Below the pieces are notes generated by a model that made no database searches, was not told the origin of the DNA, and was given only the letters and a program-made list of their open reading frames with translations. Below are positions 44,997 to 62,949 of a stretch of DNA of 64,000 nt, piece by piece; position 1 is the stretch's first letter; the number at the start of each line of letters is the position of its first letter. The position numbers and the translations under genes are program-made. Source of the stretch: a virus; the IMG/VR virus record IMGVR_UViG_3300024581_003939, positions 3,513 to 67,512 of that record; one strand, written 5' to 3'.

Positions 44997-45413
44997 TTAA
45001 TCTAATTTCACAACTTTGACGCCACTATCTCTAAGAACGTTAATGCCTGACATGTCTGGTGCATATTCGTTAATAAAGAGTACTTCGTCAATCCCAGCAT
45101 TGACTATGCATTTCGCGCATACCAAACAAGGTGAATGAGTCAAATACATTTTTTTCTTTTTAGGATTGTTAAAGTCACATTTAATCAATGCATTGACTTC
45201 AGCATGTATAAAGCCGCTTTTTCCTGTTTCTAGACTGTCTCTTTGATTTGGGCCGCCTTTGTGATCTCCATTGTATCCTAAAGCTAAGACCTGTGTATTG
45301 TCTTCAGTTACAATCACAGCACCTACTTGAAATTTTTGATCAGGAGATCTTTTTGATATATCTAAAACAAAGTTCTTCCAAATACTATTCCATCCAGGGC
45401 GAATATTGTTCAT
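44997..45413 (-). CDS. dCMP deaminase
   Basis: VGAVIV, GYNG, HAEVNAL, SPCLVC. Confidence 0.9.
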   Translation of the reverse strand: MNNIRPGWNSIWKNFVLDISKRSPDQKFQVGAVIVTEDNTQVLALGYNGDHKGGPNQRDSLETGKSGFIHAEVNALIKCDFNNPKKKKMYLTHSPCLVCAKCIVNAGIDEVLFINEYAPDMSGINVLRDSGVKVVKLD

Positions 45414-46009
45414 ACAGGTTTTCTTCCGCTTTTAAGTACAATTTCACAAATATGGTCTAATCTTTCAATATGCTCGTATGCATCCCACGGATTGGATCCT
45501 ACGGCGCAAACTCCATGTCCAGCTTGAGCAACAATATCATATACTATTTTGTTGTCTTTAGTCATGTTATCGAAAGTACATATTGCCAGTTCCGGAGAGA
45601 TCACTGGAAGGACTGGAACAGTAGGGCCTACCTTACTATATCTTGAAACCTCTGGGAATTCATCAGACAGCTTCTGCATATCCCAGCCGCCATAGACAGC
45701 TGATATAATATTAGTAGGGTGCAAATGAACAACAGCTAAAGTTTTGTTGGTCGACTTTTGTAGCATCCAATGCATTTCCAATTCTCCTGAAGGGTTAACA
45801 TTTTCAGGAAATTCAATGTCTCCAAAATACTCACCTTGAATATCAGTCTTAATAATAGACTCTGGGTGAATAATTGTTTTTCTTACTCCAGAAGGTGTAA
45901 TGTACATTTTTGTTGAATTATAGCGTTTTAAAGAAATATTTCCGTCACGAGTTGTTATCCAGCCCTTTTCATAAGCTCTTCGCATTACATCGCCGATTGC
46001 TGTCAACAT
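45410..46009 (-). CDS. class II aldolase/adducin-family protein
   Basis: DGNIS, ITPSG, PSGELEMH, VVHLHP, GHGV. Confidence 0.88.
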   Translation of the reverse strand: MLTAIGDVMRRAYEKGWITTRDGNISLKRYNSTKMYITPSGVRKTIIHPESIIKTDIQGEYFGDIEFPENVNPSGELEMHWMLQKSTNKTLAVVHLHPTNIISAVYGGWDMQKLSDEFPEVSRYSKVGPTVPVLPVISPELAICTFDNMTKDNKIVYDIVAQAGHGVCAVGSNPWDAYEHIERLDHICEIVLKSGRKPV

Positions 46010-46851
46010 GGTTGATCCTTGTCAAAAAGATCTTCTATTTTAAAATCGCCAGGAAGTGTAAAGCCGGCCGCTTTTTTGTGACCGCCGCCGCCATATCTTT
46101 TTGCAATTTCAGAAACATCAATATGCTCATGAAATGCTCTTAAGCTAACTTTGATATTTTTATCATTATGATCATAATACCAGATCAAAGCAAAGTCACA
46201 GTCTGGAGATAGTTTAGCACCAATCTCACTCATCCAATGCGATGAATTAACAACCATAACATGCTTGCCGTTAATTTTTCTATTAGCGGCTTTATCGCAT
46301 ACTTTTTTGACAACTGTTTTTGAATATGCTAAAATATAAGATCCGCGTTTAACTGCATCATCAAAAACGCTATCATCTTCAAATTTTTCAAACTCTTCAA
46401 AATCAAAAGGAACCATGTCAAAAGCAGCACTAAATTCTTTTGAATAGGGTAGCTCCCATTTCCACAAATCTCTATCTGTAATATATTGAACAAACTTAGG
46501 TGATTCTTTCCCTGGATGGAAAAACTCCCATGCCATTGTTGCTCCGCTTTTGCTCATGTCAAAAATTGTATTTGATATGTCGTGAAGTTCTACGACAGCT
46601 GACTTGTGATGATCGATAATTACCAAGTCTTTTGCTTCTGATATCATTTTCTTTGTTACTTCATTACTGAATGAAAAGTCTAGTATCACCACAGTCTTGT
46701 CTTTTACATCTGGTGGTTCTTGTCCATGCTTACAAGGATAATACTCAGCTCTGTTACCAAGCAGCTTCCAAGCAGCATATGCGGATCCGAATCCATCTGT
46801 GCAATTTGCATGATAAATAACACAGTTAACACTTGAAGGGTCTAACATCAT
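46003..46851 (-). CDS. DHH/DHHA1 phosphoesterase
   Basis: YHANCTDG, LDFS, IDHH, GGGHKKAAG. Confidence 0.88.
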   Translation of the reverse strand: MMLDPSSVNCVIYHANCTDGFGSAYAAWKLLGNRAEYYPCKHGQEPPDVKDKTVVILDFSFSNEVTKKMISEAKDLVIIDHHKSAVVELHDISNTIFDMSKSGATMAWEFFHPGKESPKFVQYITDRDLWKWELPYSKEFSAAFDMVPFDFEEFEKFEDDSVFDDAVKRGSYILAYSKTVVKKVCDKAANRKINGKHVMVVNSSHWMSEIGAKLSPDCDFALIWYYDHNDKNIKVSLRAFHEHIDVSEIAKRYGGGGHKKAAGFTLPGDFKIEDLFDKDQPC

Positions 46852-46862
46852 TTTCTCCTGAA

Positions 46863-47453
46863 TTAGTCTCTCATATAATTATGGTGTAATTGACATCTTG
46901 GCTCGTAAAGTTCAGCCCCTCCTACTTGGATTTGATCTAATCGATTATCAGATTTAAAACTTTCTACGTGTTTTACAGAACTTTTTTTACAGGTGTAGCC
47001 GGCATCTTTTTGACAGACACTGCAAACCGCTGTACACTTTTCAATTTTTGTACAATAAGGCATTAGATTTTTTACTTCTTCAAACGCTTCCCCTGTAAAA
47101 GACAAATCAATTGAAGCGACAACGACATTATAGCCTTTTTTAAAAAGCTTGATGCATGCCGCGGCACCACCCTCAATTAGAAATAACTCATCGATTATTA
47201 CAGTATCGATATTGATGTCTGTTTCTAGATCAACTATCTTATTGATAATCTCATCACCTGTTGAGACTAGGTGTGCAGGAAGCTTGTTAAAGTTATGTGT
47301 TACAATCTCTCCGACATTTGTGTATCTGTCATCCATTCTTGACTTAAAAGAAATGATATTTTGTTTTTGATATTGTCTTTTGTCTGCTTCCATCAATAGG
47401 CGGGTTGTTTTAGAACTAAACATAGGCCCGGTATATAAAATAAGTTCAGTCAT
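46863..47453 (-). CDS. tdk: thymidine kinase
   Basis: GPMFSSKT, IIDE, CSVC...YEPRC. Confidence 0.92.
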   Translation of the reverse strand: MTELILYTGPMFSSKTTRLLMEADKRQYQKQNIISFKSRMDDRYTNVGEIVTHNFNKLPAHLVSTGDEIINKIVDLETDINIDTVIIDELFLIEGGAAACIKLFKKGYNVVVASIDLSFTGEAFEEVKNLMPYCTKIEKCTAVCSVCQKDAGYTCKKSSVKHVESFKSDNRLDQIQVGGAELYEPRCQLHHNYMRD

Positions 47454-48451
47454 TTAAGCCCCCACCATTTATATGTTTTTTCCATTCCTTCCCAAAATGT
47501 TACTACTGGCTTATAACCAAAATCATTAAAGGCTTTGCTGCAGTCTGCCAATGTATGCTTAACATCACCCGGCCGCTCTGGCGCATTTTTGATCTTAACT
47601 TTATCGCCAAATTCTTCTTTTAGGTGGTCTAGAATCTGATTATTTGTTACGCTACTACCGCATGCAATATTATAGCATTCTCCTAAGAACTTTTTATTAG
47701 AATTTGCAGCTAAAATATTTGCTGAAACTACATTGTCTATATGACACATATCTCTTGACTGTTCCCCATCGCCATCAGATCTACACTCTAGACCGTTTGT
47801 AATTGCATGACACCATGCTGACACTGCTGTTGAATAAGGACTGTCTCCATATTGTCCTTGCCCAAAAACATTAAAGTATCTTAAACAGACAATATCTAAA
47901 TCATAGAGGCCTGCACACACCTTTGCAAAATCCTCAATAGCTGATTTTTGCCAAGCATAGGGAGAGAGAGGTGACTTATTTTGACGTTCAGTTGTTGGAA
48001 GGGATCCAGCGTCTCCATAGACTGAAGAAGAAGATGCCCAGACAATTCTGTCAACAGAACCACGTGCTGCCTCAAAAAGTCTAACAGTTTTTGAAATATT
48101 GATATCAGTTGTATGCCATGGCTCCTCAACAGAATAGCTTACGCGAGGTAAGGCAGCCTGATGAAAGACGACGTCATAATTTCCTTGATATACAGCGTTC
48201 AAGACATTGTCATCAGCAAAATCATCTTGAATTACTAACACTTCATCTTGATGCCTTTCGTGATCTTGCATTTTATAAGCTGTATAAAATGTCCCGTTGG
48301 CTAAAACTCTAAATTTTAAATCATTTAAAAGCTCTAAATGACCGTTAGACATGTCATCAACAATATCTACTTGCCACCCTTGTTTTACCAGTTCTTTTGC
48401 GAGATTGCTTCCAATAAATCCACAACCGCCTGTTACTAATGCTTTTTTCAT
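47450..48451 (-). CDS. NAD-dependent nucleotide-sugar epimerase/dehydratase (extended SDR)
   Basis: TGGCGFIG, HQAA, SSSSVYG, YAWQK, RYFNVFG. Confidence 0.92.
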   Translation of the reverse strand: MKKALVTGGCGFIGSNLAKELVKQGWQVDIVDDMSNGHLELLNDLKFRVLANGTFYTAYKMQDHERHQDEVLVIQDDFADDNVLNAVYQGNYDVVFHQAALPRVSYSVEEPWHTTDINISKTVRLFEAARGSVDRIVWASSSSVYGDAGSLPTTERQNKSPLSPYAWQKSAIEDFAKVCAGLYDLDIVCLRYFNVFGQGQYGDSPYSTAVSAWCHAITNGLECRSDGDGEQSRDMCHIDNVVSANILAANSNKKFLGECYNIACGSSVTNNQILDHLKEEFGDKVKIKNAPERPGDVKHTLADCSKAFNDFGYKPVVTFWEGMEKTYKWWGLK

Positions 48452-48531
48452 ATAGGCTCCTATAATTAGTGTTATTATAACTAGCTAAATTAAAATTTAT
48501 ATTATTTGAGTTCTTTGATTGAAGTTAAACT

Positions 48532-49086
48532 TTACAGCACAACTTCAATGTCGCATTCATCAATGTCTAAACTTTCAGCTAGTCGACTTTTTCCTCCAAG
48601 CCCTTCAATTTCCATTAAAAACCAAAAAGAAACAGAATTAGCATTCAACGACTGGACAATGTTTCCAACTGCCTCAGCTGTCCCACCTGTTGCAAGAACA
48701 TCATCAACAATCAATACATTGTCTCCTCGAGTAATATCATCTTTGTGAATTTCAATTTTATCATTTCCGTATTCTAGACCATAAGATTGGTACACAGTTT
48801 CTCTAGGCAGCTTTCCTTCTTTCCTGGCAAGAACTAGGGGTAAACCAGTTTCGTATGCAAGAAGTGTTCCTAAAATAAAACCTCGCGACTCTATTGCAAC
48901 AATTTTATTAAAATTGCGTCCGTCATTTTTAATCCATCTAGCGTGAGAAGAAATAATATTTTTTAGTTCAGACTGATCTCTTAAAACAGGGGTAATGTCC
49001 TTAAACAGGATTCCCTGTTTTGGAAAGTCAGGTACATCAATAATTAACTTCTTTATTCTTTCTAGCATAAATTTATATTCGCTCAT
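48532..49086 (-). CDS. apt: adenine phosphoribosyltransferase
   Basis: ESRGF, RKEGKLP, PRPP loop VDDVLATGGT. Confidence 0.9.
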   Translation of the reverse strand: MSEYKFMLERIKKLIIDVPDFPKQGILFKDITPVLRDQSELKNIISSHARWIKNDGRNFNKIVAIESRGFILGTLLAYETGLPLVLARKEGKLPRETVYQSYGLEYGNDKIEIHKDDITRGDNVLIVDDVLATGGTAEAVGNIVQSLNANSVSFWFLMEIEGLGGKSRLAESLDIDECDIEVVL

Positions 49087-50172: not shown

Positions 50173-50393
50173 TTTTTCTTTTTTCTTCCTCGTTTTTTAG
50201 GTGGGGGTTTAACCTCTTTTTTCTCAGGTATCTTTATATGATTCTGATGTATCGTTAGTTGGAGCACGAAGTCTTTTCCTCCCTTTTCAGTTGATTTAAA
50301 AGTTACCCAACCTTCTGAGTCGCAAGAAACGACTTCGTGCTTTTTAAATCTCTTGCCAATTTTAACAGAGATCTTGTCACCCTTAGTAATCAT
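50169..50393 (-). CDS. small basic hypothetical protein
   Basis: MITKGDKIS...; AT-hook-like PKKRGRK tail. Confidence 0.55.
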   Translation of the reverse strand: MITKGDKISVKIGKRFKKHEVVSCDSEGWVTFKSTEKGGKDFVLQLTIHQNHIKIPEKKEVKPPPKKRGRKKKK

Positions 50394-51360
50394 TTTTATT
50401 TTCAAGTGTTTTTAAGAATGAAACAATACTATCTACTTCTTTCTGGCTTAAATCTTTTCCAAGCTGAATTGATGCCATAATTCGAACTGCATCTTCAATT
50501 GTTTCTACACTTCCGTCGTGAAAATATGGACCGGTATTTGTGATGTTTCGTAAAGAAGGAACCTTAAATACTTCTTTGTCTGCTGGATTACCTGTTACGT
50601 TAAATCTACCTAAGTCAATATGACCACCATCAGTTCGATAAGGTTTTAAAACACCTAGTTTTTGAAAGCTATTACCTCCAAATAGCGCGCCGTTGTGACA
50701 CGAACCACATCCAGTGGAGACAAATTTCTCATATCCTTCAACTTCTTCTTTTGTCAGATACGTTTTCCCATTTAGCCATGCATCAAATCGATCAGAGGTT
50801 ACCAAAGTTCTTTCAAATGCAGCAATTGCGTTCGCAATATTATCAAATGTAATAGGGTTTTCTTGATCAGGAAACGCTTTTTCAAATAAAGGTGGGTAAG
50901 ATTCGATACTTGAAATGGATGATTCTGCATCTTCTTTTGTTTTTGTACCCATTTCTCCTGCAGCAAGAATTGGCCCTTTTGCTTGTTCTTCTAGAGTAGG
51001 TGCACGGCCGTCCCAAAACTGTGCTACATGATATCCTGAATTAAAGGTTGAAGGTGCATTCCGTTCTACAGGTTTACCATATGCCCCTATCGAAACTTTA
51101 AGTGGTTCAGCACCGTGATGACTTAATAAGTGACATGATTCACACGACTGAGTTTTATTTCCACTCAAAGCTTTTTCTGAGTAAAGCAAACGTCCTAGGT
51201 CTACCATCTCCTTAGTATCTTTTTTAATTTTTAAATCGTCAATCGTTCCAAACATCGACTGAGCTTGAGCTTTAATCTCAATTTCTTTGTTCTCGTCTTC
51301 TGACGTAGTTTTTAGTTCTGGCTGCTGATTACATGCCATCATTAATAACGCGATATACAT
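50383..51360 (-). CDS. di-haem cytochrome c peroxidase (CcpA/MauG family), lipoprotein
   Basis: two CxxCH motifs (CESCH, CGSCH), RNAPST, QFWDGRA, VPSLRN, PYFHDG; lipobox LLMMA-C. Confidence 0.92.
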   Translation of the reverse strand: MYIALLMMACNQQPELKTTSEDENKEIEIKAQAQSMFGTIDDLKIKKDTKEMVDLGRLLYSEKALSGNKTQSCESCHLLSHHGAEPLKVSIGAYGKPVERNAPSTFNSGYHVAQFWDGRAPTLEEQAKGPILAAGEMGTKTKEDAESSISSIESYPPLFEKAFPDQENPITFDNIANAIAAFERTLVTSDRFDAWLNGKTYLTKEEVEGYEKFVSTGCGSCHNGALFGGNSFQKLGVLKPYRTDGGHIDLGRFNVTGNPADKEVFKVPSLRNITNTGPYFHDGSVETIEDAVRIMASIQLGKDLSQKEVDSIVSFLKTLENKNDY

Positions 51361-51369
51361 AGTTGCTCC

Positions 51370-51789
51370 TTAGTTACCTGTACTTCCATAACCGCCCGAT
51401 CCTCTTTCTGTCGGTGTCAGTTCATCTACTTCATTAAATTCAATCTTAGGATATGGCATAATAATTAATTGCCCAATCCTATCTCCAATTTGATATTCAT
51501 TTCTGTTAGCTGATAGAGAAAATTTCATCATGATCTCACCTCTATAGCCAGAATCGATAACTCCAACACAATTAGTTAGCATTTGCCCTGTCTTATAAAC
51601 TGAAGATCGAGGAAATAATAACCCGACATGCCAACGAGGAATCTCAACGGCCAATCCAGTGTGATATGTAAAACAACCATACTGGTCAGTTGTTACGTCC
51701 ACCGCGGTCAAATCCAATCCGGCATCCCCCTTTTTAGCGTATTTAGGGATAACTGCATCGGGGTGCATTTTCTTAATTTTAACTTTCAT
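51370..51789 (-). CDS. dut: trimeric dUTPase
   Basis: AGLDL, PRSS, GVIDSGYRGE, RIGQL, RGSGGYGSTG. Confidence 0.95.
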   Translation of the reverse strand: MKVKIKKMHPDAVIPKYAKKGDAGLDLTAVDVTTDQYGCFTYHTGLAVEIPRWHVGLLFPRSSVYKTGQMLTNCVGVIDSGYRGEIMMKFSLSANRNEYQIGDRIGQLIIMPYPKIEFNEVDELTPTERGSGGYGSTGN

Positions 51790-52105
51790 TATCTTCCTCT
51801 GTATCTTTGATTGTTTTAAAAGCTTCGTCATATAGTTTTTTCGTTTTAATAAAATTTGACAATGCTTTTCTTTCTTTCTTTTTGACTGTATTAAAATATT
51901 TTACAGCTTCGTTTTGTATGTCTTCCAGTTCTCCTGAGGGAACTTTTATAGTTTTTATATAGCTTTGTAATCCATCATATGAGATAATAGTGATCTTAAA
52001 TAGTTCGTCTTTATAAATTGACATTCTCAGTTTGATTCTTTCTACATCAGCATCTTTGTAAACGTAGTACTTTGCTGAACCTATCGATCGATACATTTCC
52101 CACAT
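51779..52105 (-). CDS. hypothetical protein
   Basis: MWEMYRSIG after GGGG RBS. Confidence 0.55.
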   Translation of the reverse strand: MWEMYRSIGSAKYYVYKDADVERIKLRMSIYKDELFKITIISYDGLQSYIKTIKVPSGELEDIQNEAVKYFNTVKKKERKALSNFIKTKKLYDEAFKTIKDTEEDNES

Positions 52106-52106
52106 T

Positions 52107-52355: not shown

Positions 52356-52365
52356 TTTTTCTCCA

Positions 52366-53277: not shown

Positions 53278-53281
53278 TAGT

Positions 53282-53326
53282 TACCTCGTTTAAGAATATT
53301 ATACTTAGACAAGGTATTCTTTACAT
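53282..53326 (-). promoter_or_regulatory. promoter ATGTAA-N17-TATAAT with RBS-covering hairpin
   Basis: -35 at 53321-53326, -10 at 53298-53303 in the loop; arms 53304-53316 and 53282-53294. Confidence 0.72.
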
Positions 53327-53335
53327 TGTTATGTA

Positions 53336-55756: not shown

Positions 55757-55873
55757 AATTTCCTTCATCTTTAAGCTGTTTTAAACACGGGTAGATCATA
55801 ACCACGAGTGTAGTCTTCACCTTGCACGGCCACTTTGTAAGCTATTTGTTACTAACAAATATAACATATATAT

Positions 55874-58800
55874 TTAATCTGTAACTAAAGGTCTAATTTT
55901 TCTTGAACTAGTGCTAGCACCCCAGTTAGGATCATTAGACGCTTCTGTCAACCAGATTGAATATGGCACCATCGATTCAGGTTTTTCACCCCACATTCTT
56001 AACCAACCTGTGTTATTTTCGTAATCAGTAATCTTAAGTCGATAAAAAGTCTTTTTGTTTTTTGTTGTCTTTTTAATCATGTCAACAATACAACACCAGG
56101 CGATACATTTTTCACCAGGAAGCATATTAAGAACGGATTTTACTCCTGCTGATCGAATCTTTTCCATCATTTCGTCAGGAAAGGCCAGATCATCACGAGT
56201 TGCTGAGCAAAGATCTTGATACATTGTGAGTTTATCAATTCGACCCCAGTCTTCTGTACCTCTTGTTTCATCTATTAAAACTGGTAATATTTCAGGGGCG
56301 TTTTCTTTCTTTGCTTTACGGGCTGTCATACCCCATTTACTTTTCTTGAGATTGGAATAGTTGTCAATAATGATATTATAGAGCTGCTTATGATTATCAA
56401 TTGTACCATCCCACATTTCTTGTAATCCATTAAATGCTTCTACTTGACACAGAGACGCAAACCCTGTTTTATTAAGTTTGGAATGTCGCCATTTGCCATC
56501 ATCATCAAACAACATGCTTGCAACTGATTCATATGGTCGATTTTGCATAATTTCAACAACTGCTGTTTTTCCTACCCCTTTAATTGAAGTTAAAGGAGGG
56601 ATAAATGCCTGTTTCTTTTCAGACCACTGCCAGTAAGTACCTGATTCATTAACATCAGGAAGAGCCACACGATAACCCATTTCTTTAATTTCGGCAATTG
56701 CTTTTGATAGTGCATTTGGATTATTGTTTTCAGACTCAAGAATTGTGCCTAGCCAGTCAGTTTCATAGTATGTGTGTAACCAAGCAGCGTAATAAGAGCC
56801 GATAGCATAAGCAATCGCATGCGATTTATTAAAGCCGTAAACTGAGAAGAATTCGATCCGTTCCCACAACTCTTGTGAAACATGTTCAGGTACACCATTG
56901 ATTTCTTTTGCGCCGGTCACAAATTTAATGCGAGCTTCTTCACGTTCATCGCCTTTTTTGCCCATAGTATCAAGAGACTTCTTAACCAGCGTCTTGCGAA
57001 GTTTATCGGATTCAGCAGGCGTGAAACCTCCTAGCTTCTGCGCAAGAAGCATGAACTGCTCTTGGAATGTTACGTGGCCAAAGGTTGGTCCAAGAATATC
57101 CTTGATGATTGGATGTTCATAGTGAATTTCATCAGCACGAAGTTTGTCTTTTACATATTTCTTATGCACATTTGCACGAAGAGGACCAGGACGATAGATT
57201 GCAGTTAGCGCTGCCAATTCTTCAATATTAGTTGGTTTGGCATCTTCACAGAAACGACGAGCACCTTCAGCTGTAAACTGAAATACGCCTACTTTTCGAC
57301 GCTGATGATAAACATGCTTCCAAACTTCTTCATCATCTTGATCGACATATCGACAGTTAAGATGCTTATCAAACCAGTCGCGTATCTCTAAGAATGTAGG
57401 CTCTTTACCTGTTTCACGTGTTAAGATCCGCTTAATACAGTTTTCAACATCTTTTAATAGTGTTAGGCCAAGAAAGTCAAACTTAATAAAGCCGTTATCT
57501 TCGAGATTACGGAAGTTCATACCTTCAGTCCAGGGTGTTTGTAATTCACCACGCACGCCAATAATAGGCATTGATTGTTCTAGGTCACGAGGAGGACCAA
57601 TAATAACCCCACCAGCGTGTCGACCAATCGAGCGGTTCTGCATGAATAGAGCTTCGATATGATCCTTTACTTTTGGATATTTTTCCATGAATTCACGATA
57701 TCCTTTAGAGAATTGCATGCAATCTTCATGCTTAAGAACGAATACAGACTTCTCAGTATTTTCATCACGTGCTTGTGACATAACCTCATCTTGTAGTGGG
57801 CCGGTCATTTTATTTACTTCACCAAAGTCGACACCATAAAACTTGGCGATATCCTTAACCAAGGACTTGAGTTTAAGCGTGTTAAAGTTGGATACAGGAA
57901 TTACTGCTTCGTCACCATACAGCTCTCTAGCTGCATTGATTAGTGCATCACGGTCACCAGCATCAGAGTCGATATCGGGCCACGAAGTACGATGGCGACC
58001 TAGGAAGCGCTCCCATAGCAAGTCGTATTTAAGAGGATCGACCTGCGTAATACCTAACAAGAAGTTTACAAGTGAACCACCACCAGAACCACGTGCTGCG
58101 CCAAATAGAGTATGATCAGCAGCTTTATGGAATACCTCATTCATTACTAAGAAGTAGTTTTCGAATCCGAGGAATTTGATGTCTTCGAGTTCTGCTTTTG
58201 TTCTTTCAACATACTCAGGTTTCGTATGAAGTCCTTCCTTAACGAGTGCCTCTTTAACTTTTTGCGCAAGCTGTTGAAAAGCAGATTGGTTAGGGTTGTT
58301 GAAATCGGGAAGCTTAACAGAAGTATCAATCCAACAGTCTTCGCACTTCTCCCATGCAATATCGTGTGTAATTTCAATAGATTTTTTAATCGTTTCTTCG
58401 AAACCTTCATATGTGTCTTTGTATTCTTCATAATGTCGTGTAAATTCATCCCACATCTGACCTGCATTTTTTGGATACAGTTCACATTTAAGATCTTCAA
58501 ACTCCGGTAACGGACTTGGGTCGTTACCCATCCACCCTAATTTTTTATAAAGTTCTCTGGCCTCCCATTTATCAGGTGAGTAATAGTGTGAGTCTGGTGT
58601 GGAAATAAGTTGTAAACCAGTTTGTTGCGCATGACGTAACATATGATGATTTACAAGATGTTGTTGTTTAAGTCGATTAAATTGCAATTCCAAATAGAAA
58701 TTGTCTTCACCAACTGCATCAACAAAACGTTCAGATAAGTATGACAGTTCTTGCTGAATTTGCTCGTCAGAAAGCTTTAAAGCATTTCCTCGCATAATGC

Positions 58801-59392
58801 GATTCGAAAAAATACCGCCTAGACAAGCTGTGGAAACATTAAGCCCTTTACCGTATTGTTTAAGAAGATCGAAGTCAATGCGAGGATATCTATAAAAGCC
58901 GTCAGTATAGGCACGTTTAATTAGAGTAAACAAGTTACCCAAACCTTCACGGTTTTGTGCAGTAACCACCAGATGATAACGTCGTTTCCATTCGTCTTTT
59001 CCTAGCTCGAATGTTTTAGTTTCATCTTCGTTTTCAATAATATGACCGCCTTCCTCTTCTTCTTTAATCGCTTTTTGCTTTGCTGCAGCTCGGTCGATCT
59101 TGGCTTGTTCGTAGTCTGATTTCCAATCTTTAAGTGAGGGGACAAAATAGAATTCACATCCGTAAATTTGACGGAATTTCTTGCCTTGCTTTTTTACTTT
59201 TTGTGCGTGCTTATAGGCGTGAGCAAGACCGCTACCGTTACCATGATCAGTTAATGCCCAGGCATCCATGCCGTTTTCTAGTACGAAGTCGATGTGATCA
59301 GACGGATAACCTAATCCATCAAAAACGGAAAAGCCTGTGTGTCCGTGAAAGCCAACAAATCGATCGGGTGGTGTAAGTAATTTGATATCCAT
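55874..59392 (-). CDS. dnaE: DNA polymerase III alpha subunit
   Basis: PHP domain (HGHT..S..DG, TDHG), GRGSGGGS-like ARGSGGGS, catalytic PDIDSD, KFDFLGL, FNKSH, HhH and OB domains. Confidence 0.96.
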   Translation of the reverse strand: MDIKLLTPPDRFVGFHGHTGFSVFDGLGYPSDHIDFVLENGMDAWALTDHGNGSGLAHAYKHAQKVKKQGKKFRQIYGCEFYFVPSLKDWKSDYEQAKIDRAAAKQKAIKEEEEGGHIIENEDETKTFELGKDEWKRRYHLVVTAQNREGLGNLFTLIKRAYTDGFYRYPRIDFDLLKQYGKGLNVSTACLGGIFSNRIMRGNALKLSDEQIQQELSYLSERFVDAVGEDNFYLELQFNRLKQQHLVNHHMLRHAQQTGLQLISTPDSHYYSPDKWEARELYKKLGWMGNDPSPLPEFEDLKCELYPKNAGQMWDEFTRHYEEYKDTYEGFEETIKKSIEITHDIAWEKCEDCWIDTSVKLPDFNNPNQSAFQQLAQKVKEALVKEGLHTKPEYVERTKAELEDIKFLGFENYFLVMNEVFHKAADHTLFGAARGSGGGSLVNFLLGITQVDPLKYDLLWERFLGRHRTSWPDIDSDAGDRDALINAARELYGDEAVIPVSNFNTLKLKSLVKDIAKFYGVDFGEVNKMTGPLQDEVMSQARDENTEKSVFVLKHEDCMQFSKGYREFMEKYPKVKDHIEALFMQNRSIGRHAGGVIIGPPRDLEQSMPIIGVRGELQTPWTEGMNFRNLEDNGFIKFDFLGLTLLKDVENCIKRILTRETGKEPTFLEIRDWFDKHLNCRYVDQDDEEVWKHVYHQRRKVGVFQFTAEGARRFCEDAKPTNIEELAALTAIYRPGPLRANVHKKYVKDKLRADEIHYEHPIIKDILGPTFGHVTFQEQFMLLAQKLGGFTPAESDKLRKTLVKKSLDTMGKKGDEREEARIKFVTGAKEINGVPEHVSQELWERIEFFSVYGFNKSHAIAYAIGSYYAAWLHTYYETDWLGTILESENNNPNALSKAIAEIKEMGYRVALPDVNESGTYWQWSEKKQAFIPPLTSIKGVGKTAVVEIMQNRPYESVASMLFDDDGKWRHSKLNKTGFASLCQVEAFNGLQEMWDGTIDNHKQLYNIIIDNYSNLKKSKWGMTARKAKKENAPEILPVLIDETRGTEDWGRIDKLTMYQDLCSATRDDLAFPDEMMEKIRSAGVKSVLNMLPGEKCIAWCCIVDMIKKTTKNKKTFYRLKITDYENNTGWLRMWGEKPESMVPYSIWLTEASNDPNWGASTSSRKIRPLVTD

Positions 59393-59397
59393 ATAAG

Positions 59398-59452
59398 AAA
59401 ACTCCTGGTATTATTTTTGTTATAGTATACCACAAGGAGTTTAAGATTACAT
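59398..59452 (-). promoter_or_regulatory. dnaE promoter ATGTAA-N17-TATACT with RBS-covering hairpin
   Basis: -35 at 59447-59452, -10 at 59424-59429; arms AAACTCCT-TGT-GGTAT and ATACC-AGGAGTTT. Confidence 0.72.
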
Positions 59453-59527
59453 TTTTAACTACTTATTAAACCTTGTTATCAGAAGCACTACCGTAAATAA
59501 ATTTGCCCTTATATAGTTTTCGCTTCC

Positions 59528-61336
59528 TTAAAACAGAAATTTCAAAGTGTATTTTTTTCTTTCACTTAAGTTTCTTTTTTCTAAATTATCTCTGGCACTA
59601 TCTCTTACTTGTTCGTCTCTATCGTTTAGTAATTCTTTTAAAGTTTGAACATTTGTATTTTGATTTTCTGCAACATTTTGCCTTACCCATTTATCACTGT
59701 CTCCTGACATTATTTGCAAAGTTTCAGATCGGGTTGACGGGTTTGAAGCGACAAATGATCTAACTCTTTTGCTGGTATCGTATGATAGCTTGTCTATGAC
59801 ATCTGGAGTTGCTGATTCATTCATTGCTATAAATACCCTTACCCATTCAACAGTATCGTCAGTCATTTTAAGCAAAGTCGTCGGGCCTGTTGATTCATTT
59901 TGAGCAATTGCTGACCTTACACTCCTATCAGCATCATCTGATAAGATATCTAACAATCTGGAGTCTACTGGATCTTTTTGTGCTATAGACTGTCTTACGC
60001 CACTTGATCGATCGCTTGTTAAGTTTTTTAATATCTCAAAAGGCGTCAATTCATTATACACGACTGATCTTCTTACATGTTCTGAAGTGTCTTTTGATAA
60101 CTTTTCTAGAAGTTGTAAATTTTCTAAATTTCTTGCAACTACTGATCTTACAGTTTCATCTTTATCATTTGATAGTCTTTCTAGTATTTCTGACTTAGAT
60201 GGCATGGATCTGTGTCCAATATTTTTTACTGCATTTAATCTTACAACAGGTGACGGATCATTTGAAAACTTGTTTAGTAAAACCTCATCATCAGTTCTTA
60301 ATGCAACATTTTGTCTTACGCTTTCGCTCTTGTCGTTTGACAAATAAGCTAATACTTCCGGTGAAACATTTCCTTGATCGAGAACCGAACTTATAAAATC
60401 ACTTTTTTCACTTTCACCGTAATCTTTGATGACAGATATTAAAACTTCTAAGTTTTCTGCGGACTTTTCTAATATTTCAATTGCTGGACTTATGCCGTTG
60501 TACTTTTGAACAGTTGAATTAATTGCGCTCATAATATCGTTATAGTACTGTCCTAGCGCTTTTGAAAAAGATGCTTGTGTCAGCCCTTTGTTTGATGCAT
60601 CGACAGATATACCTCCGTCTTGACCATGAAGCTCAATTTGACCCTCCACGAAACCTAAAGACATTCTAGAACAATTATTAGCCATGCAAGGATTTTCTTG
60701 ATATATCTGTGGGTCGTCAGGCTTTCTATTATAGTCCATTATGTAAAATAGCATCATGGACTCTCCGTGTGCACCGGCATAAGAATAAAATAAGTTTTGC
60801 CCATTTCTTTTTGTTGTGCACCAAGTTGTGGACTGAGGGTTGTCAAAGTCACAAGAAACTGACCCTCTGACTGTCTTAGGCAGAATAACGGTCCACGGGC
60901 CAAATTTGCCAACAATTTCTAGATCAGTACCGTTCTCTAACGAAACCATGGTTTTTCTGTCGTGCGAGCTTAAATCAACATTGACACCCTGTATAAAGTT
61001 GTCTAGCTCTTGAATTGAACTAAAGGACGAGAGGTTTAAGTAAGATAATATGCTAGGGTCATTAAGCCTCTTTGACTTAACCCTAACTTTTTGTTTAAAT
61101 GCTTCAGTTTTAAATTCTAAAACTGACTGAATTATGTGAAATAGGTCAAAGTTGTCTCTAATTTTTTGAATCCAGGAGAAGTCTTGAGTTTTAAGACCGC
61201 TGGCTTCGGCATTCAAGTATATTCTCTTATCTTCTTCAGAAATGTTTAAATTGTTAATATAATCTCTATCTCTTCTTCCTTCAGAAATAAGATAATTTTC
61301 TATTAATGTGTTCAATTGTTTTTTTGATATTTTCAC
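59528..61336 (-). CDS. WCT-motif family protein, paralog D, with LRV/HEAT-like repeats
   Basis: MKISKKQLNTLIENYLISE; TTWCTTKRNGQNLFYSY; C-terminal repeats. Confidence 0.78.
   Translation of the reverse strand: MKISKKQLNTLIENYLISEGRRDRDYINNLNISEEDKRIYLNAEASGLKTQDFSWIQKIRDNFDLFHIIQSVLEFKTEAFKQKVRVKSKRLNDPSILSYLNLSSFSSIQELDNFIQGVNVDLSSHDRKTMVSLENGTDLEIVGKFGPWTVILPKTVRGSVSCDFDNPQSTTWCTTKRNGQNLFYSYAGAHGESMMLFYIMDYNRKPDDPQIYQENPCMANNCSRMSLGFVEGQIELHGQDGGISVDASNKGLTQASFSKALGQYYNDIMSAINSTVQKYNGISPAIEILEKSAENLEVLISVIKDYGESEKSDFISSVLDQGNVSPEVLAYLSNDKSESVRQNVALRTDDEVLLNKFSNDPSPVVRLNAVKNIGHRSMPSKSEILERLSNDKDETVRSVVARNLENLQLLEKLSKDTSEHVRRSVVYNELTPFEILKNLTSDRSSGVRQSIAQKDPVDSRLLDILSDDADRSVRSAIAQNESTGPTTLLKMTDDTVEWVRVFIAMNESATPDVIDKLSYDTSKRVRSFVASNPSTRSETLQIMSGDSDKWVRQNVAENQNTNVQTLKELLNDRDEQVRDSARDNLEKRNLSERKKYTLKFLF
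59583..60363 (-). repeat. about ten 24-26 aa LRV/HEAT-like repeats (protein level)
   Basis: repeat unit LxxLSxDxxxxVRxxVAxN. Confidence 0.8.
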
Positions 61337-61361
61337 GCGAAGACCTTTTTAGATATAAGTA

Positions 61362-61766
61362 TTAACGCTCTCTACAATTTTCACACAATGTATAGATCCA
61401 GCCGCGATTATTATCTTGCTTTTCTGATGGTTTGCCACACTCTGTACAGATATGATATGACATAGACTCAGCCATGCTTACCAACCCATCAATATAATCA
61501 TCACTACCGTACGTGTAAAAGCAGAGGCCACCAAACTTTTCCTTGACTTGAACTGCTTCGCAAATAAGATGTTCTTCTTCTGGCTTGTTTCTATTAACAT
61601 TGATAATTCGATTTTGAATATTTTCACATAGGGTGTCGATTAGGTCGTACCATCCGTCTCCGCAAGAGATTCCCCAGCACATTGCTGTCACAGTTTTGTC
61701 TAGGTCTTTCTGGCGAAAGATGTTTGGGTATTTTTCATAAAGTTGTTGTTGAAGTTCTGCTTTCAT
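61362..61766 (-). CDS. conserved phage-type hypothetical protein with C-terminal Zn ribbon
   Basis: GWYDLI, QVKEKFGGL, CTECG...CENC. Confidence 0.7.
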   Translation of the reverse strand: MKAELQQQLYEKYPNIFRQKDLDKTVTAMCWGISCGDGWYDLIDTLCENIQNRIINVNRNKPEEEHLICEAVQVKEKFGGLCFYTYGSDDYIDGLVSMAESMSYHICTECGKPSEKQDNNRGWIYTLCENCRER

Positions 61767-61957
61767 TTTTCTACCTCTTGTTCTAGTGTTATAACTGACG
61801 TTGCGCCGTCATAAACAATTGCTTTTATTTTTCCTTTAGTCAGTGCTTGTATCTCTTTAAAGCCGTATCTATTATAACAGCTAAGGACTATAGAGTATAC
61901 TTTTTCACCTCTATAGTCCAAAGTTGATATCAAGTCACCCGCCTTTATTTCGGTCAT
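61763..61957 (-). CDS. small SH3-like protein
   Basis: IKAGDLIS. Confidence 0.5.
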   Translation of the reverse strand: MTEIKAGDLISTLDYRGEKVYSIVLSCYNRYGFKEIQALTKGKIKAIVYDGATSVITLEQEVEK

Positions 61958-62949
61958 TAAAAGAATTCCGTCAAATCGATATTCTTTTCTTGTGCTTCTT
62001 CAAGATAACGAAGTGGATTATACCCTTCTGACTTTAAAATACTTTCGTATGACATGCGTATACCTTCTACGAGACCTATCTTAGGATACCAGCCAGTATA
62101 CTCTCTGACTTTTCTACCACTTAAGATATGATTACCCATATATTCTGTTTGGGGTAGCCATTCAATTGTATCTGCGAAACTCTGGCCGCATACTTTATCC
62201 ATTAATTCTACTATTTCTCCTGTCACAAGTGGTGTTTCTGCCGCGATATTAAAGTCGTTGTTCCAACATTTGTCTTCTTTGATGCAGGAAAATACACCAT
62301 CACAATAGTCATTGACATGTAGATAATCTTTAATTTTTGTTGGATCCAAGAACATTTGAATCTTTTTTACGCCGTTTAATTTTGCATAAATAGTTTTTGC
62401 GATCAGAGAATTCATATCACCTTCACCGCCGTATGCAAAAAGAGGTCGAATAATCATCCACTTACTACTATGAGACTTAACTACTTCTTCAGCTGCTAGC
62501 TTTTGACAACCGTAAAAAGTATGAGGACCACGATCAGAGTCTTCTTCGATAGCAGTCTCTTGATACTTGGGTGTATCATAAATAACAGTCGTGCCCATAT
62601 AACATACAGGAATTCCGCATTTTTTTGCAGCACGACAGATATTGAAAGTGCCTTGAACATTTGTCAATGTTGATTCTTTTGAATTAAGCGCTACGACATC
62701 AGTTCCTACAACGGCTGCATTATGAATAACGACATCGATATTGTTGACTCTGAAAAAAGATGCCCAAGCCTCTTCTGAGTTTCGATGAATGCAGGGCTCG
62801 CCTTTTTCTGTTGTAAATTGTGAAACAAAAGCGGCATCTTCATTTATCTCGTGCACCCCAGAAATAAAGTTAAGACCATTTAGTTTGGCACGCTTCGCAA
62901 GATTAGTTCCAATAAATCCTCGCTCGCCAGTGATAAAAACATTTTTCAT
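61957..62949 (-). CDS. second NAD-dependent epimerase/dehydratase (SDR)
   Basis: TGERGFIG, HNAA, YGCQK, IRP..AYG. Confidence 0.88.
   Translation of the reverse strand: MKNVFITGERGFIGTNLAKRAKLNGLNFISGVHEINEDAAFVSQFTTEKGEPCIHRNSEEAWASFFRVNNIDVVIHNAAVVGTDVVALNSKESTLTNVQGTFNICRAAKKCGIPVCYMGTTVIYDTPKYQETAIEEDSDRGPHTFYGCQKLAAEEVVKSHSSKWMIIRPLFAYGGEGDMNSLIAKTIYAKLNGVKKIQMFLDPTKIKDYLHVNDYCDGVFSCIKEDKCWNNDFNIAAETPLVTGEIVELMDKVCGQSFADTIEWLPQTEYMGNHILSGRKVREYTGWYPKIGLVEGIRMSYESILKSEGYNPLRYLEEAQEKNIDLTEFF

What the first reader, a model, noticed from the sequence alone, without database searches (positions are those of the whole stretch)
44997..62949. Nucleotide and sugar enzymes that could supply a glycosylated-base pathway
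Seen: dCMP deaminase, class II aldolase (a family that includes pentulose-phosphate epimerases such as AraD), DHH phosphoesterase, Tdk, SDR epimerase, APRT, dUTPase, the kinase-TS fusion, DnaE and a second SDR epimerase. Known: T4-like phages that glycosylate modified cytosine pair a TS homologue and a dNMP kinase with sugar-nucleotide enzymes. Inferred: the epimerases and aldolase may provide a sugar donor for hypermodification. No DNA glycosyltransferase is recognisable in this window, so virion or host surface glycosylation is an equally open explanation.
Basis: inference. Interest (0 to 1): 0.6.

Follow-up and report, generated by a model that had tools for sequence, protein, structure and literature searches.

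The report
Phage cytosine-modification block with sugar enzymes
This stretch of an uncultured marine giant phage is a conserved nucleotide-metabolism block whose key enzyme looks built to make 5-hydroxycytosine for the phage DNA, flanked by two conserved sugar-nucleotide-type enzymes; whether a sugar is then attached to the DNA stays open, because no transferase lies in this fragment.

Summary
This includes the doubtful "kinase-TS fusion" (52366-53277). Its model (pLDDT 94) is a YorR-like kinase joined to a miniature thymidylate-synthase fold. The best match of that fold is the dCMP 5-hydroxylase AfhB of phage HY126. The protein carries the published 5-hydroxy-dCMP synthase signature: Cys146, L143D, D169N, N177D.

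The record is about 22% of a jumbo phage of roughly 330 kb. Across 28 related viral contigs the core order is Ndt-like, SDR2, DnaE, kinase-TS, SDR1, Tdk, DHH, dCMP deaminase. Both SDRs are therefore fixed partners of the cytosine-modifying enzyme. SDR2 is also kept in a sister group that lacks SDR1.

The class II aldolase is absent from every relative compared. APRT is found in only 4 of 31 related loci. Both are accessory, and the AraD idea is not supported.

No glycosyltransferase lies in this record. One sublineage has a GT8 inside the block. Four relatives carry a distant GT4/GT2 cluster, but the same cassette occurs in Flavobacterium phage immuto, whose dC was measured as canonical.

Verdict: cytosine modification is likely. 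Sugar attachment to DNA is plausible but unproven (about 0.35).

The scan has already found the kinase-mini-TS fusion on other genomes. New here are the SDR co-conservation and the transferase census.

The parts
44997..45413 (-). dCMP deaminase. A core gene of the block. Makes dUMP for dTMP synthesis.
   Evidence: PF00383, E 1.4e-19. Homologue present in 26 of 31 related loci.
45410..46009 (-). Class II aldolase-family protein, MtnB-like. A strain-specific accessory insertion, not part of the conserved block.
   Evidence: PF00596, E 6e-25. Best NCBIfam match is MtnB at 62.9 bits, below the 137-bit cut-off. Best PDB match is 2irp (aq_1979), with the HxH, GHG and Glu metal-site residues aligned. 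Absent from L003-L039 and from G001. Almost no homologues among cultured phages.
46003..46851 (-). DHH/DHHA1 phosphoesterase, NrnA/RecJ-like. A core gene, 67-92% identical across the relatives compared.
   Evidence: PF01368 and PF02272. Present in 26 of 31 related loci. Absent from the sister group.
46863..47453 (-). Thymidine kinase. A core gene.
   Evidence: PF00265, E 1.9e-36. Present in 25 of 31 loci and in 7 of the 15 more distant loci, which include the sister group.
47450..48451 (-). SDR1: an extended SDR of the WbpP/WbgU/TviC type, probably a UDP-hexose or UDP-HexNAc 4-epimerase. Lies immediately downstream of the kinase-TS gene in most distant relatives.
   Evidence: PF01370 and PF16363, E about 1e-44. 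PDB matches 6dnt and WbgU, E 1e-51 to 1e-53. GxxGxxG motif and Ser-YxxxK triad intact. Below all NCBIfam equivalog cut-offs. Adjacency to kinase-TS shown.
48532..49086 (-). Adenine phosphoribosyltransferase. An accessory purine-salvage gene.
   Evidence: NF002636 at 201 bits against a 125-bit cut-off; TIGR01090 at 191.6 against 185.85. Present in only 4 of 31 related loci.
50383..51360 (-). Di-haem cytochrome c peroxidase / MauG / MbnH-like protein. An accessory insertion that is not part of the pathway.
   Evidence: PF03150, E 8.7e-51. TIGR04039 at 177 bits, below cut-off. Absent from relatives.
51370..51831 (-). Trimeric dUTPase.
   Evidence: PF00692, E 5.9e-23. Present in 6 of 31 related loci.
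52366..53277 (-). Fusion of a YorR-like nucleotide kinase (residues 8-148) with a miniature thymidylate-synthase-fold domain (residues 146-303). Candidate dCMP 5-hydroxylase plus kinase for its product.
   Evidence: AlphaFold2 pLDDT 94.4. Foldseek best match 9iqu AfhB, E 4.8e-6. VIA-align: YorR Z 13.8, AfhB Z 11.4. hhalign places residues 235-268 on RB69 gp48 residues 162-195. C236, R256-S257 and D267 are invariant in all 31 complete sequences of 32 lineage members aligned (one is cut short before R256); N259 is present here. 720 homologues found; 434 clusters at 50% identity.
53336..55768 (-). 810-aa protein of unknown function. This is not the kinase-TS fusion. Found only in the closest relatives.
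   Evidence: No match in Pfam, PHROGs, NCBIfam or PDB. Present in 4 of 31 loci.
55874..59392 (-). DnaE-type DNA polymerase III alpha subunit. The anchor of the block.
   Evidence: PF07733, PF17657, PF02811, PF14579. 83-94% identical in close relatives.
59528..61336 (-). HEAT/LRV-repeat protein. A variable insertion between DnaE and SDR2. In G015 and G017 a GT8 gene lies in the same interval, between SDR2 and DnaE.
   Evidence: PF02985 and PF01816. GT8 at L025:5609-6388, PF01501, E 1.4e-14.
61957..62949 (-). SDR2: a divergent extended SDR of epimerase/reductase type. The deepest conserved SDR partner of DnaE and kinase-TS.
   Evidence: PF01370, E 3.5e-29, and PF04321. GxxGxxG and Thr-YxxxK present; no TDE dehydratase motif. 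Present in 25 of 31 loci and in 6 of 8 sister-group records. Its own cluster is 98% viral.
6111..6797 (+). Canonical ThyX, the flavin-dependent thymidylate synthase. Lies outside the finding's span. Shows that dTMP is made in the ordinary way.
   Evidence: PF02511, E 4.8e-47. The RHRxxSxNxxSxR motif is readable in the translation.

Best explanation
The region is the conserved nucleotide-metabolism and replication block of an abundant, uncultured marine jumbo-phage lineage. It holds three layers.

1. Ordinary dTTP supply and salvage. dCMP deaminase, dUTPase, Tdk, the DHH phosphoesterase and ThyX (elsewhere in the window) feed an AT-rich genome. APRT, the class II aldolase and the di-haem peroxidase are accessory insertions: the aldolase and the peroxidase are seen only in this phage, APRT only in its closest relatives.

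2. A cytosine-modification step. The 303-aa fusion most likely converts dCMP to a C5-modified dCMP. By its residue signature the product is probably 5-hydroxy-dCMP, made with flavin and O2 as in AfhB and RB69 gp48. Its fused YorR-like kinase would then phosphorylate the product so that the adjacent DnaE can incorporate it.

3. Two core SDR enzymes. They most likely tailor a host-made NDP-sugar. SDR1 would act as a UDP-hexose or UDP-HexNAc 4-epimerase. SDR2 would act as an epimerase or reductase of unknown substrate. The product would be put on the modified cytosine by a transferase encoded outside this 72-kb fragment.

Shown: the gene identities, the two-domain fold, the signature residues and the synteny.
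Inferred: the hydroxylation chemistry, the incorporation into DNA and the whole sugar step.

Confidence about 0.65 that cytosine is modified. Confidence about 0.35 that the SDRs feed a DNA glycosylation.
For: Fold and signature of the fusion:
- Model at pLDDT 94.4. The N-terminal domain matches YorR (Z 13.8). The C-terminal domain matches AfhB 9iqu (Z 11.4), TS and MilA.
- The spacings Cys to Arg = 20 and Arg to Asp = 11 equal those recalled for E. coli ThyA (Cys146, Arg166, Asn177). This gives D233 = L143D, C236 = Cys146, N259 = D169N and D267 = N177D.
- hhalign puts the same residues on RB69 gp48, an experimentally verified 5hodCMP synthase.
- PMC13326640 names D169N as diagnostic, and N177D and L143D/E as determinants of dCMP use and of a non-methyl product.
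- The same paper reports a YorR/Tmk-like kinase in each known cluster: two genes from the synthase in RL38JI (gp214, gp216) and DLP3 (gp78, gp80), three in RB69 (gp45, gp48). Here the two are fused.

Conservation:
- PF01370 SDRs occur in 28 of 28 related records, usually exactly two.
- The order Ndt-like, SDR2, DnaE, kinase-TS, SDR1, Tdk, DHH, deaminase is kept down to 36% kinase-TS identity, often with overlapping stop and start codons.
- An SDR2-type gene persists in 6 of 8 sister-group records.
- SDR1 and SDR2 lie about 130 kb from the large glycan cluster of G001. They are present whether or not such a cluster is found, and the clusters of G021, G024 and G028 have extra SDRs of their own.

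Transferases and other points:
- A GT8 lies between SDR2 and DnaE in G015 and G017.
- The catalytic motifs of both SDRs are intact.
- There is no avoidance of GC-containing palindromes. This is weak evidence, but consistent with protected DNA.
Against: - No glycosyltransferase, no sugar-1-phosphate nucleotidyltransferase and no all-alpha dCTPase is found in this record.
- No transferase family is conserved across the lineage. GT2 and GT4 occur in only 4 of 28 records and GT8 in 2.
[quoted passage not shown] That phage's DNA shows canonical dA, dC and dT plus fdPreQ1 by LC-MS.
- Position 259 is Glu or Asp in 12 of 32 family members, so the 5-hydroxy assignment may not hold for the whole family.
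- The TS domain has about 150 residues, against 217 in AfhB. It gets no PF00303 hit, and the hhalign probability is only 5%.
- SDR1 is missing in the sister group, so it is not required by the kinase-TS enzyme.
- Conserved synteny in a vertically inherited phage core does not prove functional coupling.
- No chemistry has been measured.
Confidence: 0.4

Rival explanations
1. Cytosine is modified, but the SDRs have nothing to do with DNA. They tailor nucleotide sugars for a virion or host-surface glycan built by the GT4/GT2 cluster or by host enzymes. They simply sit in a vertically inherited early-gene block.
For: - The only transferase cluster in the closest long relative, G001, also holds a UDP-sugar dehydrogenase, a sulfotransferase and a methyltransferase, which is typical of polysaccharide synthesis.
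- The same cassette occurs in phage immuto, whose dC is canonical.
- SDR1's nearest solved relatives, WbgU and WbpP, are O-antigen enzymes.
- Cyanophages and other large phages commonly carry such epimerases.
Against: - SDR1 and SDR2 are core genes, present in 28 of 28 records, whereas the glycan cluster was found in only 4 of 28.
- They lie about 130 kb from that cluster, and the clusters bring their own SDRs.
- G015, at 87% completeness, has both SDRs but no GT2 or GT4.
Confidence: 0.3
2. SDR2, and perhaps SDR1, act at the nucleotide or cofactor level rather than as sugar-donor enzymes. One possibility is an NAD(P)H-dependent reductase that supplies reduced flavin to the mini-TS monooxygenase. 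Another is redox or epimerisation chemistry on a nucleotide intermediate.
For: - SDR2 is the deepest conserved partner of kinase-TS and DnaE, with no conserved transferase alongside.
- In an unrelated lineage (L073, L075) a YorR-like kinase fused to a different domain is again followed directly by an SDR2-like gene.
- AfhB-type enzymes need reduced flavin (PMC13326640).
- From my own recall, not tested here: the SDR superfamily includes an NADPH:flavin reductase, BLVRB.
Against: - Both SDRs are full-length 'extended' SDRs with the C-terminal substrate domain.
- Their best matches are all NDP-sugar enzymes.
- No SDR is part of the published RB69, DLP3 or HY126 systems.
Confidence: 0.12
3. Everything here is ordinary nucleotide supply. 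The mini-TS domain is a degenerate or regulatory module, for example a dCMP-binding domain on a kinase, and the DNA is unmodified.
For: - Canonical ThyX, dCMP deaminase, Tdk and dUTPase are sufficient for dTTP supply.
- The TS domain lacks about 40% of a normal TS and gets no Pfam hit.
- No dCTPase was found.
Against: - The catalytic Cys and the phosphate-binding Arg pairs are invariant in 32 diverged members, and Asp267 in all 31 that reach that position. Such conservation is not expected of a dead domain.
- The best structural match is an active dCMP hydroxylase.
Confidence: 0.15

Closest known systems
Glycosyl-5-hydroxycytosine hypermodification clusters of Escherichia phage RB69 (gp45-gp55), Acinetobacter phage DLP3 (gp76-gp83), E. 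coli phage HY126 (Afh system) and Rhizobium phage RL38JI (Lee et al., NAR 2026, PMC13326640; AfhB structures 9iqu and 9iqc)
   Same: - A TS-superfamily enzyme with Cys146, L143D/E, D169N and N177D.
- A YorR/Tmk-like nucleotide kinase beside it.
- A position next to the phage DNA polymerase.
- Nucleotide-sugar tailoring genes in the neighbourhood. RL38JI, for example, encodes a UDP-galactopyranose mutase.
   Different: - Kinase and synthase are fused into one 303-aa protein, and the TS domain is cut down to about 150 residues.
- The polymerase is DnaE, not a family B polymerase.
- The arabinose-5-phosphate isomerase, kinase/NTP-transferase and HAD phosphatase set is missing.
- No GT-B DNA glycosyltransferase and no all-alpha dCTPase was found in the fragment.
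- The accompanying sugar enzymes are two extended SDRs, which the known systems lack.
T4 dC-replacement set (gp42 dCMP hydroxymethylase, gp1 dNMP kinase, gp56 dCTPase, cd, td, tk, alpha- and beta-glucosyltransferases)
   Same: The logic is the same: a TS homologue acts on dCMP, a kinase follows, and dCMP deaminase, thymidylate synthase and thymidine kinase are present alongside.
   Different: - Position 169 is Asn, not Asp, which predicts hydroxylation rather than hydroxymethylation.
- Thymidylate synthase is ThyX rather than ThyA.
- No PF09198 or PF11440 transferases were found. That test is weak, because the control genomes did not ring either.
UDP-HexNAc 4-epimerases WbpP and WbgU, 6dnt, and TviC
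   Same: SDR1 is a strong, near-full-length match to these enzymes (E 1e-46 to 1e-53). Its Rossmann motif and Ser/Tyr/Lys triad are intact.
   Different: - SDR1 scores below every NCBIfam equivalog cut-off.
- It carries an insertion of about 20 residues after the first beta-alpha unit.
- It is encoded in a phage nucleotide block rather than in an O-antigen or capsule locus.
[quoted passage not shown]
   Same: G001, the collinear 237-kb relative of this record, carries the same genes: GT4, GT4 and GT2 follow in the same order, with the nuclease on the other side of the GT4 pair. The GT4 proteins are 28-31% identical.
   Different: The cassette is not in this record. In immuto the DNA has canonical dC, so the cassette is probably not a cytosine-glycosylation module.

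Membership tests
[quoted passage not shown] | Thymidylate-synthase fold | tested here: met
   Residues 146-303 match AfhB 9iqu (Z 11.4, 149 aligned residues, rmsd 3.2), TS 3v8h (Z 11.2) and MilA (Z 10.9). Foldseek probability 1.00.
[quoted passage not shown] | Catalytic Cys (E. coli Cys146) and Asp at the Asn177 position, which gives dCMP specificity | tested here: met
   C236 and D267 align with the PC and LDF motifs of RB69 gp48. C236 is invariant in 32 lineage members and D267 in all 31 that reach that position.
[quoted passage not shown] | Asn at the Asp169 position, the diagnostic D169N of PMC13326640 | tested here: met
   The motif R256-S257-S258-N259 aligns with RSQN of RB69 gp48. Across the family the position is Asn in 19, Glu in 7 and Asp in 5 members, so the feature is met for this protein but not for the whole family.
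[quoted passage not shown] | Acidic residue at the Leu143 position | tested here: met
   D233 lies three residues before C236. The position is Asp in 19 of 32 members.
[quoted passage not shown] | Flavin cofactor, O2-dependent hydroxylation, and 5hodCMP as product | not testable with these tools
   Needs protein expression, spectroscopy and LC-MS.
[quoted passage not shown] | Sequence-level membership in the TS family (PF00303) | tested here: not met
   No PF00303 hit for the protein or anywhere in G000, G001, G006, G015 or G021. hhalign probability to RB69 gp48 is only 5%.
Glycosyl-5-hydroxycytosine hypermodification gene cluster (RB69, DLP3, RL38JI type) | Nucleotide kinase of YorR/Tmk type beside the synthase | tested here: met
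   The N-terminal domain matches YorR 3kb2 at Z 13.8 and by profile at E 6e-5. This is the same PDB hit as reported for DLP3 gp78. Here the kinase is fused rather than adjacent.
Glycosyl-5-hydroxycytosine hypermodification gene cluster (RB69, DLP3, RL38JI type) | DNA glycosyltransferase(s), GT-B in the known systems | tested here: inconclusive
   None in the 72-kb record, but the record is only about 22% of the genome. Relatives hold GT4/GT2 clusters (4 of 28 records) or a GT8 in the block (2 records).
Glycosyl-5-hydroxycytosine hypermodification gene cluster (RB69, DLP3, RL38JI type) | Own NDP-sugar synthesis genes (isomerase, kinase/nucleotidyltransferase, phosphatase) | tested here: not met
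   No PF00483 hit in G000, G001, G006, G015 or the complete G021. Only SDR-type tailoring enzymes are present.
Glycosyl-5-hydroxycytosine hypermodification gene cluster (RB69, DLP3, RL38JI type) | dCTPase to exclude canonical dCTP | tested here: inconclusive
   The window holds only a trimeric dUTPase and a NUDIX protein. The relative G021 has a dUTPase_2/NT5C fusion upstream of the block.
UDP-hexose 4-epimerase (GalE/WbpP/WbgU) for SDR1 | GxxGxxG Rossmann motif and Ser-Tyr-Lys triad | tested here: met
   The motifs GGCGFIG, SSS and YAWQK align with those of WbgU and 6dnt.
UDP-hexose 4-epimerase (GalE/WbpP/WbgU) for SDR1 | Curated equivalog score | tested here: not met
   GalE TIGR01179 at 150 bits against a 262-bit cut-off; TviC at 155 against 760.
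   AraD models score 29-34 bits against cut-offs of 251-369. MtnB and FucA models score higher, though also below their cut-offs. The best PDB hits are aq_1979 and APIP/MtnB.
Adenine phosphoribosyltransferase | Curated equivalog score | tested here: met
   NF002636 at 201.4 bits against 125; TIGR01090 at 191.6 against 185.85.

The most novel reading that the evidence does not exclude
An abundant marine jumbo-phage lineage replaces cytosine with a 5-hydroxycytosine derivative made by a fused kinase and mini-synthase. It then decorates that base with a sugar not yet seen on DNA, for example a HexNAc, 6-deoxy or uronic sugar made by the two core SDRs. The transferases used differ from the known GT-B DNA glycosyltransferases: a GT8 in some sublineages, unrecognised proteins in others.
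Probability: 0.25. Interest if true: 0.8.

Novelty: new variant of a known kind. Interest (0 to 1): 0.55.

Why it matters
Glycosylated 5-hydroxycytosine was described only in 2025-2026, in a few cultured phages. This block would extend that chemistry to a very abundant uncultured marine jumbo-phage lineage: 720 homologues of the fusion were found, falling into 434 clusters at 50% identity. The enzyme layout is different (fused and miniaturised), and the accessory enzymes, two core SDRs, differ from those of the known systems.

Modified cytosine would affect three things:
- how these phages escape restriction and CRISPR;
- how well their DNA is recovered and sequenced in metagenomes;
- which new DNA-modifying enzymes could be harvested.

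The census made here gives a concrete short list for expression experiments. It shows which genes are core (SDR2, kinase-TS, Ndt-like, DnaE, and in the main lineage SDR1 and DHH) and which are accessory (aldolase, APRT, peroxidase).

Tried and rejected
- **810-aa ORF as the kinase-TS fusion.** Rejected. The ORF at 53336-55768 has no match in Pfam, PHROGs, NCBIfam or PDB. The fusion is the 303-aa ORF.
- **Class II aldolase as an AraD-type supplier of a pentose donor.** Rejected. It is absent in all relatives and is MtnB-like.
- **Hidden transferase in the record.** Nothing found in any of these:
  - PHROGs on ten unknown ORFs. The only hit was a weak cytidylyltransferase-like match for the ORF at 16914-17969.
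  - phmmer with nine G001/G015 proteins (the seven transferases, the UDP-sugar dehydrogenase and the PD-(D/E)XK nuclease) against all ORFs of the record.
  - An ESM Atlas search for the 429-aa neighbour of SDR2, which gave only weak peptidoglycan-binding hints.
  - PF09198 and PF11440 searches. These are weak tests, because the control genomes did not ring either.
- **Cultured relative.** None found. There is no nucleotide match to cultured phages, DnaE is at most 30% identical, and the fusion matches only the kinase part of two Pelagibacter podophages.
- **Co-variation of position 259 (N/E/D) with SDR1 or GT8.** No pattern seen.
- **ESM Atlas for SDR2.** Only generic epimerase/dehydratase clusters.
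- **The search for related loci with the 16-sequence distant alignment.** Failed for lack of a conserved stretch. A 4-sequence alignment worked.

Full report
**What the sequence is.** The window is bases 3513-67512 of a 72,198-base IMG/VR virus record. CheckV rates the record 22% complete, so it is a fragment of a jumbo phage of roughly 330 kb. G+C is about 35% and nearly all genes lie on the minus strand. No cultured phage is close: there is no nucleotide match, and DnaE is at most 30% identical to any cultured-phage protein.

**Check of the observation.** Profile searches confirm each gene call.
- dCMP deaminase, 44997-45413
- class II aldolase, 45410-46009
- DHH/DHHA1, 46003-46851
- Tdk, 46863-47453
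- SDR1, 47450-48451
- APRT, 48532-49086, which passes two NCBIfam equivalog cut-offs
- dUTPase, 51370-51831
- DnaE, 55874-59392
- SDR2, 61957-62949

Many of the genes overlap by 4-7 bases, so they form a tightly packed, co-directional array.

The remaining ORFs of at least 110 aa that were chosen as non-overlapping, in the window and in the two record ends, were nearly all scanned against Pfam. They add:
- a canonical ThyX, with a probable true start at 6111 and the RHRxxSxNxxSxR motif
- an ATP-dependent DNA ligase, a helicase, an RNase H-like protein, FEN, a sigma factor and GroEL
- cysteine synthase, NUDIX, SOD and pterin-4a-carbinolamine dehydratase
- a nucleoside 2-deoxyribosyltransferase-like gene (Ndt-like), just outside the window at L002:3173-3622

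None of them is a glycosyltransferase.

**The kinase-TS fusion.** Sequence profiles see only a P-loop and a weak thymidylate-kinase match in it. I collected 720 homologues, aligned 55 of them (A1) and predicted the structure, which came out at pLDDT 94.4 and pTM 0.89.

Foldseek against the PDB puts two entries first:
- 9iqu, 'phage HY126 dCMP hydroxylase AfhB with dCMP'
- 9iqc, 'monooxygenase dependent on riboflavin with dCMP and FAD'

Thymidylate synthases and T4 dCMP hydroxymethylase follow.

VIA-align separates the two domains:
- residues 8-148 match YorR (Z 13.8) and dNMP/dTMP kinases
- residues 146-303 match AfhB (Z 11.4), TS (Z 11.2) and MilA (Z 10.9)

**Which TS-family chemistry.** Lee et al. 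(NAR 2026, PMC13326640) show that RB69 gp48, DLP3 gp80, RL38JI gp216 and nine further homologues make 5-hydroxy-dCMP. The reaction uses a flavin and O2. Relative to E. coli ThyA these enzymes keep Cys146 and carry N177D, L143D/E and the diagnostic D169N.

In the window's protein, Cys236 to Arg256 is 20 residues and Arg256 to Asp267 is 11. By my recall of ThyA numbering these equal the Cys146-Arg166 and Arg166-Asn177 spacings. This gives D233 (= L143D), N259 (= D169N) and D267 (= N177D).

hhalign of A1 against RB69 gp48, taken from NC_004928, aligns residues 235-268 with gp48 residues 162-195 in exactly this register. The statistics are weak: probability 5%, pairwise E 0.0075.

In 32 lineage members, RR227-228 and C236 are invariant, and R256-S257 and D267 are invariant in all 31 that reach them. 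Position 259 is Asn in 19, Glu in 7 and Asp in 5. The 5-hydroxy prediction therefore holds for this phage but perhaps not for all relatives.

The known clusters also encode a YorR/Tmk-like 'nucleotide kinase' close to the synthase. Here the two are one polypeptide.

This fusion has been reported repeatedly by this scan on other genomes, with the same reading. My result is independent and agrees with those reports.

*Close relatives.* They were found with DnaE. Relatives down to 36% kinase-TS identity were found with A1 (31 loci). One of them, G001, is 236,652 bases long, 77% complete and collinear with this record over G001 positions 2.3-95 kb.

*Core order.* tblastn of all window proteins against the loci gives a core order: Ndt-like, SDR2, DnaE, kinase-TS, SDR1, Tdk, DHH, dCMP deaminase, SOD.
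- In most distant relatives SDR1 starts within a few bases of the kinase-TS stop codon.
- A PF01370 search finds SDRs in 28 of 28 records, usually exactly one SDR1-type and one SDR2-type.

*Accessory genes.*
- The class II aldolase and the di-haem peroxidase occur in none of the related loci.
- APRT occurs in 4 of 31 loci.
- The dUTPase occurs in 6 of 31 loci.
- The interval after SDR1 is a hot spot for nucleotide-metabolism insertions. G015 carries an IMPDH/GMP reductase there.

*Sister group.* A profile search of 1.8 billion representatives and a second locus search reached a sister group with 46-66% DnaE identity.
- Its order is DnaE, kinase-TS, Tdk, deaminase, without SDR1 or DHH.
- An SDR2-type gene is present in 6 of 8 records. 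The other two contigs are cut just upstream.
- SDR2 is therefore the deepest partner. SDR1 and DHH were added in the main lineage.

**Transferases.** GT2 (PF00535) and GT4 (PF00534) occur in only 4 of 28 records: G001, the complete 284-kb G021, G024 and G028.

In G001 they form one cluster at about 203-214 kb, some 110 kb beyond the point where this record ends. It holds GT4 x3, a PD-(D/E)XK nuclease, a UDP-glucose/GDP-mannose dehydrogenase, a sulfotransferase, a methyltransferase and GT2 x3. In G021, G024 and G028 the clusters bring three or four extra SDRs of their own.

The GT4 pair, with the nuclease, the GT2 and the methyltransferase, is a cassette shared with Flavobacterium phage vB_FspM_immuto and Microcystis phage Mel-JY01. 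Immuto DNA has been analysed by LC-UV-MS and shows canonical dA, dC and dT, with G replaced by fdPreQ1 (PMC10516641). That cassette is therefore probably not a cytosine glycosylation module.

G015 is 87% complete and has no GT2 or GT4. It does have a GT8 (PF01501, 54.8 bits) exactly between SDR2 and DnaE, and G017 has one too.

No sugar-1-phosphate nucleotidyltransferase, T4-type glucosyltransferase or canonical ThyA is present in G000, G001, G006, G015 or G021.

In sum, each well-sampled sublineage except G006 (70% complete) has some transferase. None is conserved with the block.

**The sugar enzymes themselves.**
- SDR1 gives strong, near-full-length matches to UDP-HexNAc 4-epimerases (6dnt, WbgU, WbpP; E 1e-46 to 1e-53). 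Its GxxGxxG motif and Ser/YxxxK triad are intact. It scores below all curated equivalog cut-offs.
- SDR2 is more divergent. Its best matches are Pal 6bwl, then GalE-type, RmlB-type and RmlD-type enzymes. It keeps GxxGxxG and Thr/YxxxK but lacks the Asp-Glu pair of 4,6-dehydratases as I read the alignment. Its own cluster is almost purely viral.
- With no nucleotidyltransferase encoded, both would have to work on host-made NDP-sugars.

**Reading.** The nucleotide genes are mostly the ordinary dTTP-supply kit of an AT-rich phage. One enzyme among them is most likely to make a modified cytosine nucleotide. The two SDRs are core partners of that enzyme and are independent of the polysaccharide-type cluster. 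That argues for a role tied to the nucleotide block.

The published precedent is sugar-tailoring genes in 5-hydroxycytosine clusters, with galactose on RL38JI DNA. On that precedent, a donor-sugar role is the best single guess. It remains a minority probability of about 0.35, for three reasons:
- no transferase co-varies with the block
- SDR1 is dispensable in the sister group
- synteny in a vertically inherited core is weak evidence of coupling

The rival explanations are:
- a virion or host-surface glycan role (0.30)
- a nucleotide- or cofactor-level role such as flavin reduction (0.12)
- no modification at all (0.15)

The absence of any avoidance of GC-containing palindromes in G000 and G001 fits protected DNA but is weak evidence.

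**Novelty and score.** The kind of system is known since 2025-2026. The fused, miniaturised synthase is a variant already noted by this scan. New here are:
- the demonstration that SDR2, and in the main lineage SDR1, is a fixed partner
- the finding that the aldolase and APRT are not fixed partners
- the census of transferases, including the negative control from phage immuto

I rate this a new variant of a known kind, with interest 0.55.

Noticed in passing
window 50383-51360 (-): A di-haem cytochrome c peroxidase / MauG / MbnH-like gene (PF03150, E 8.7e-51) sits inside the phage nucleotide block. It is absent from all relatives compared. Together with the phage SOD at 43070-43777 it suggests an oxidative-stress or protein-modification accessory function.
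   Followed up: partly
window 16914-19239 (-): A tight three-gene unit: a NUDIX protein, a cysteine-synthase-like PLP enzyme (TIGR01136 at 242 bits, below cut-off) and a 351-aa protein with weak PHROG 'cytidyltransferase' matches. It is 63-88% identical in G001. Its function in a phage is unclear.
   Followed up: partly
L060:3437-14037 (G001 203-214 kb); L063; L064: A cassette of PD-(D/E)XK nuclease, GT4, GT4, GT2 and methyltransferase is shared by this jumbo-phage lineage, Flavobacterium phage vB_FspM_immuto and Microcystis phage Mel-JY01. Its target is unknown. Immuto DNA has canonical dC.
   Followed up: partly
L073:9974-11879 and L075:9980-11814: In a different phage lineage (DnaE 27-30% identical) a YorR-like kinase is fused to a domain with a GINPS motif instead of a TS fold. 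By eye this domain looks MUG/UDG-like. An SDR2-like gene follows it with overlapping stop and start codons.
   Followed up: partly
L025:5609-6388 (G015) and G017:34478-35128: A GT8-family glycosyltransferase lies between SDR2 and DnaE in one sublineage only. It has no homologue in cultured phages and only a faint glycogenin match in the PDB.
   Followed up: partly
whole record G000 and relative G001: CCGG occurs at 1.7-1.9 times and CTAG at about 1.3 times the Markov expectation. No 4-mer or 6-mer palindrome is avoided.
   Followed up: no
L002:3173-3622 (-), window-equivalent 66060-66509: A nucleoside 2-deoxyribosyltransferase-like (PF05014) gene is a deep-core partner, in the order Ndt-like, SDR2, DnaE, kinase-TS. 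From my own recall, not tested here, this family includes dNMP and CMP N-glycosidases such as MilB, which works with the TS homologue MilA.
   Followed up: no
L031:1613-4709 (G021) and L025:269-1252 (G015): Upstream of the Ndt-like gene some relatives carry a dUTPase_2/NT5C fusion, a weak-scoring second ThyX-like gene and a methyltransferase. None of these is present at that position in this record.
   Followed up: no
phage record MH598806.1 8063-8515 (hit H81): Pelagibacter phage HTVC119P has a homologue of the kinase domain (29% identity) under features annotated 'hypothetical protein | thymidylate synthase'. This may be an unfused version of the pair in a cultured phage.
   Followed up: no
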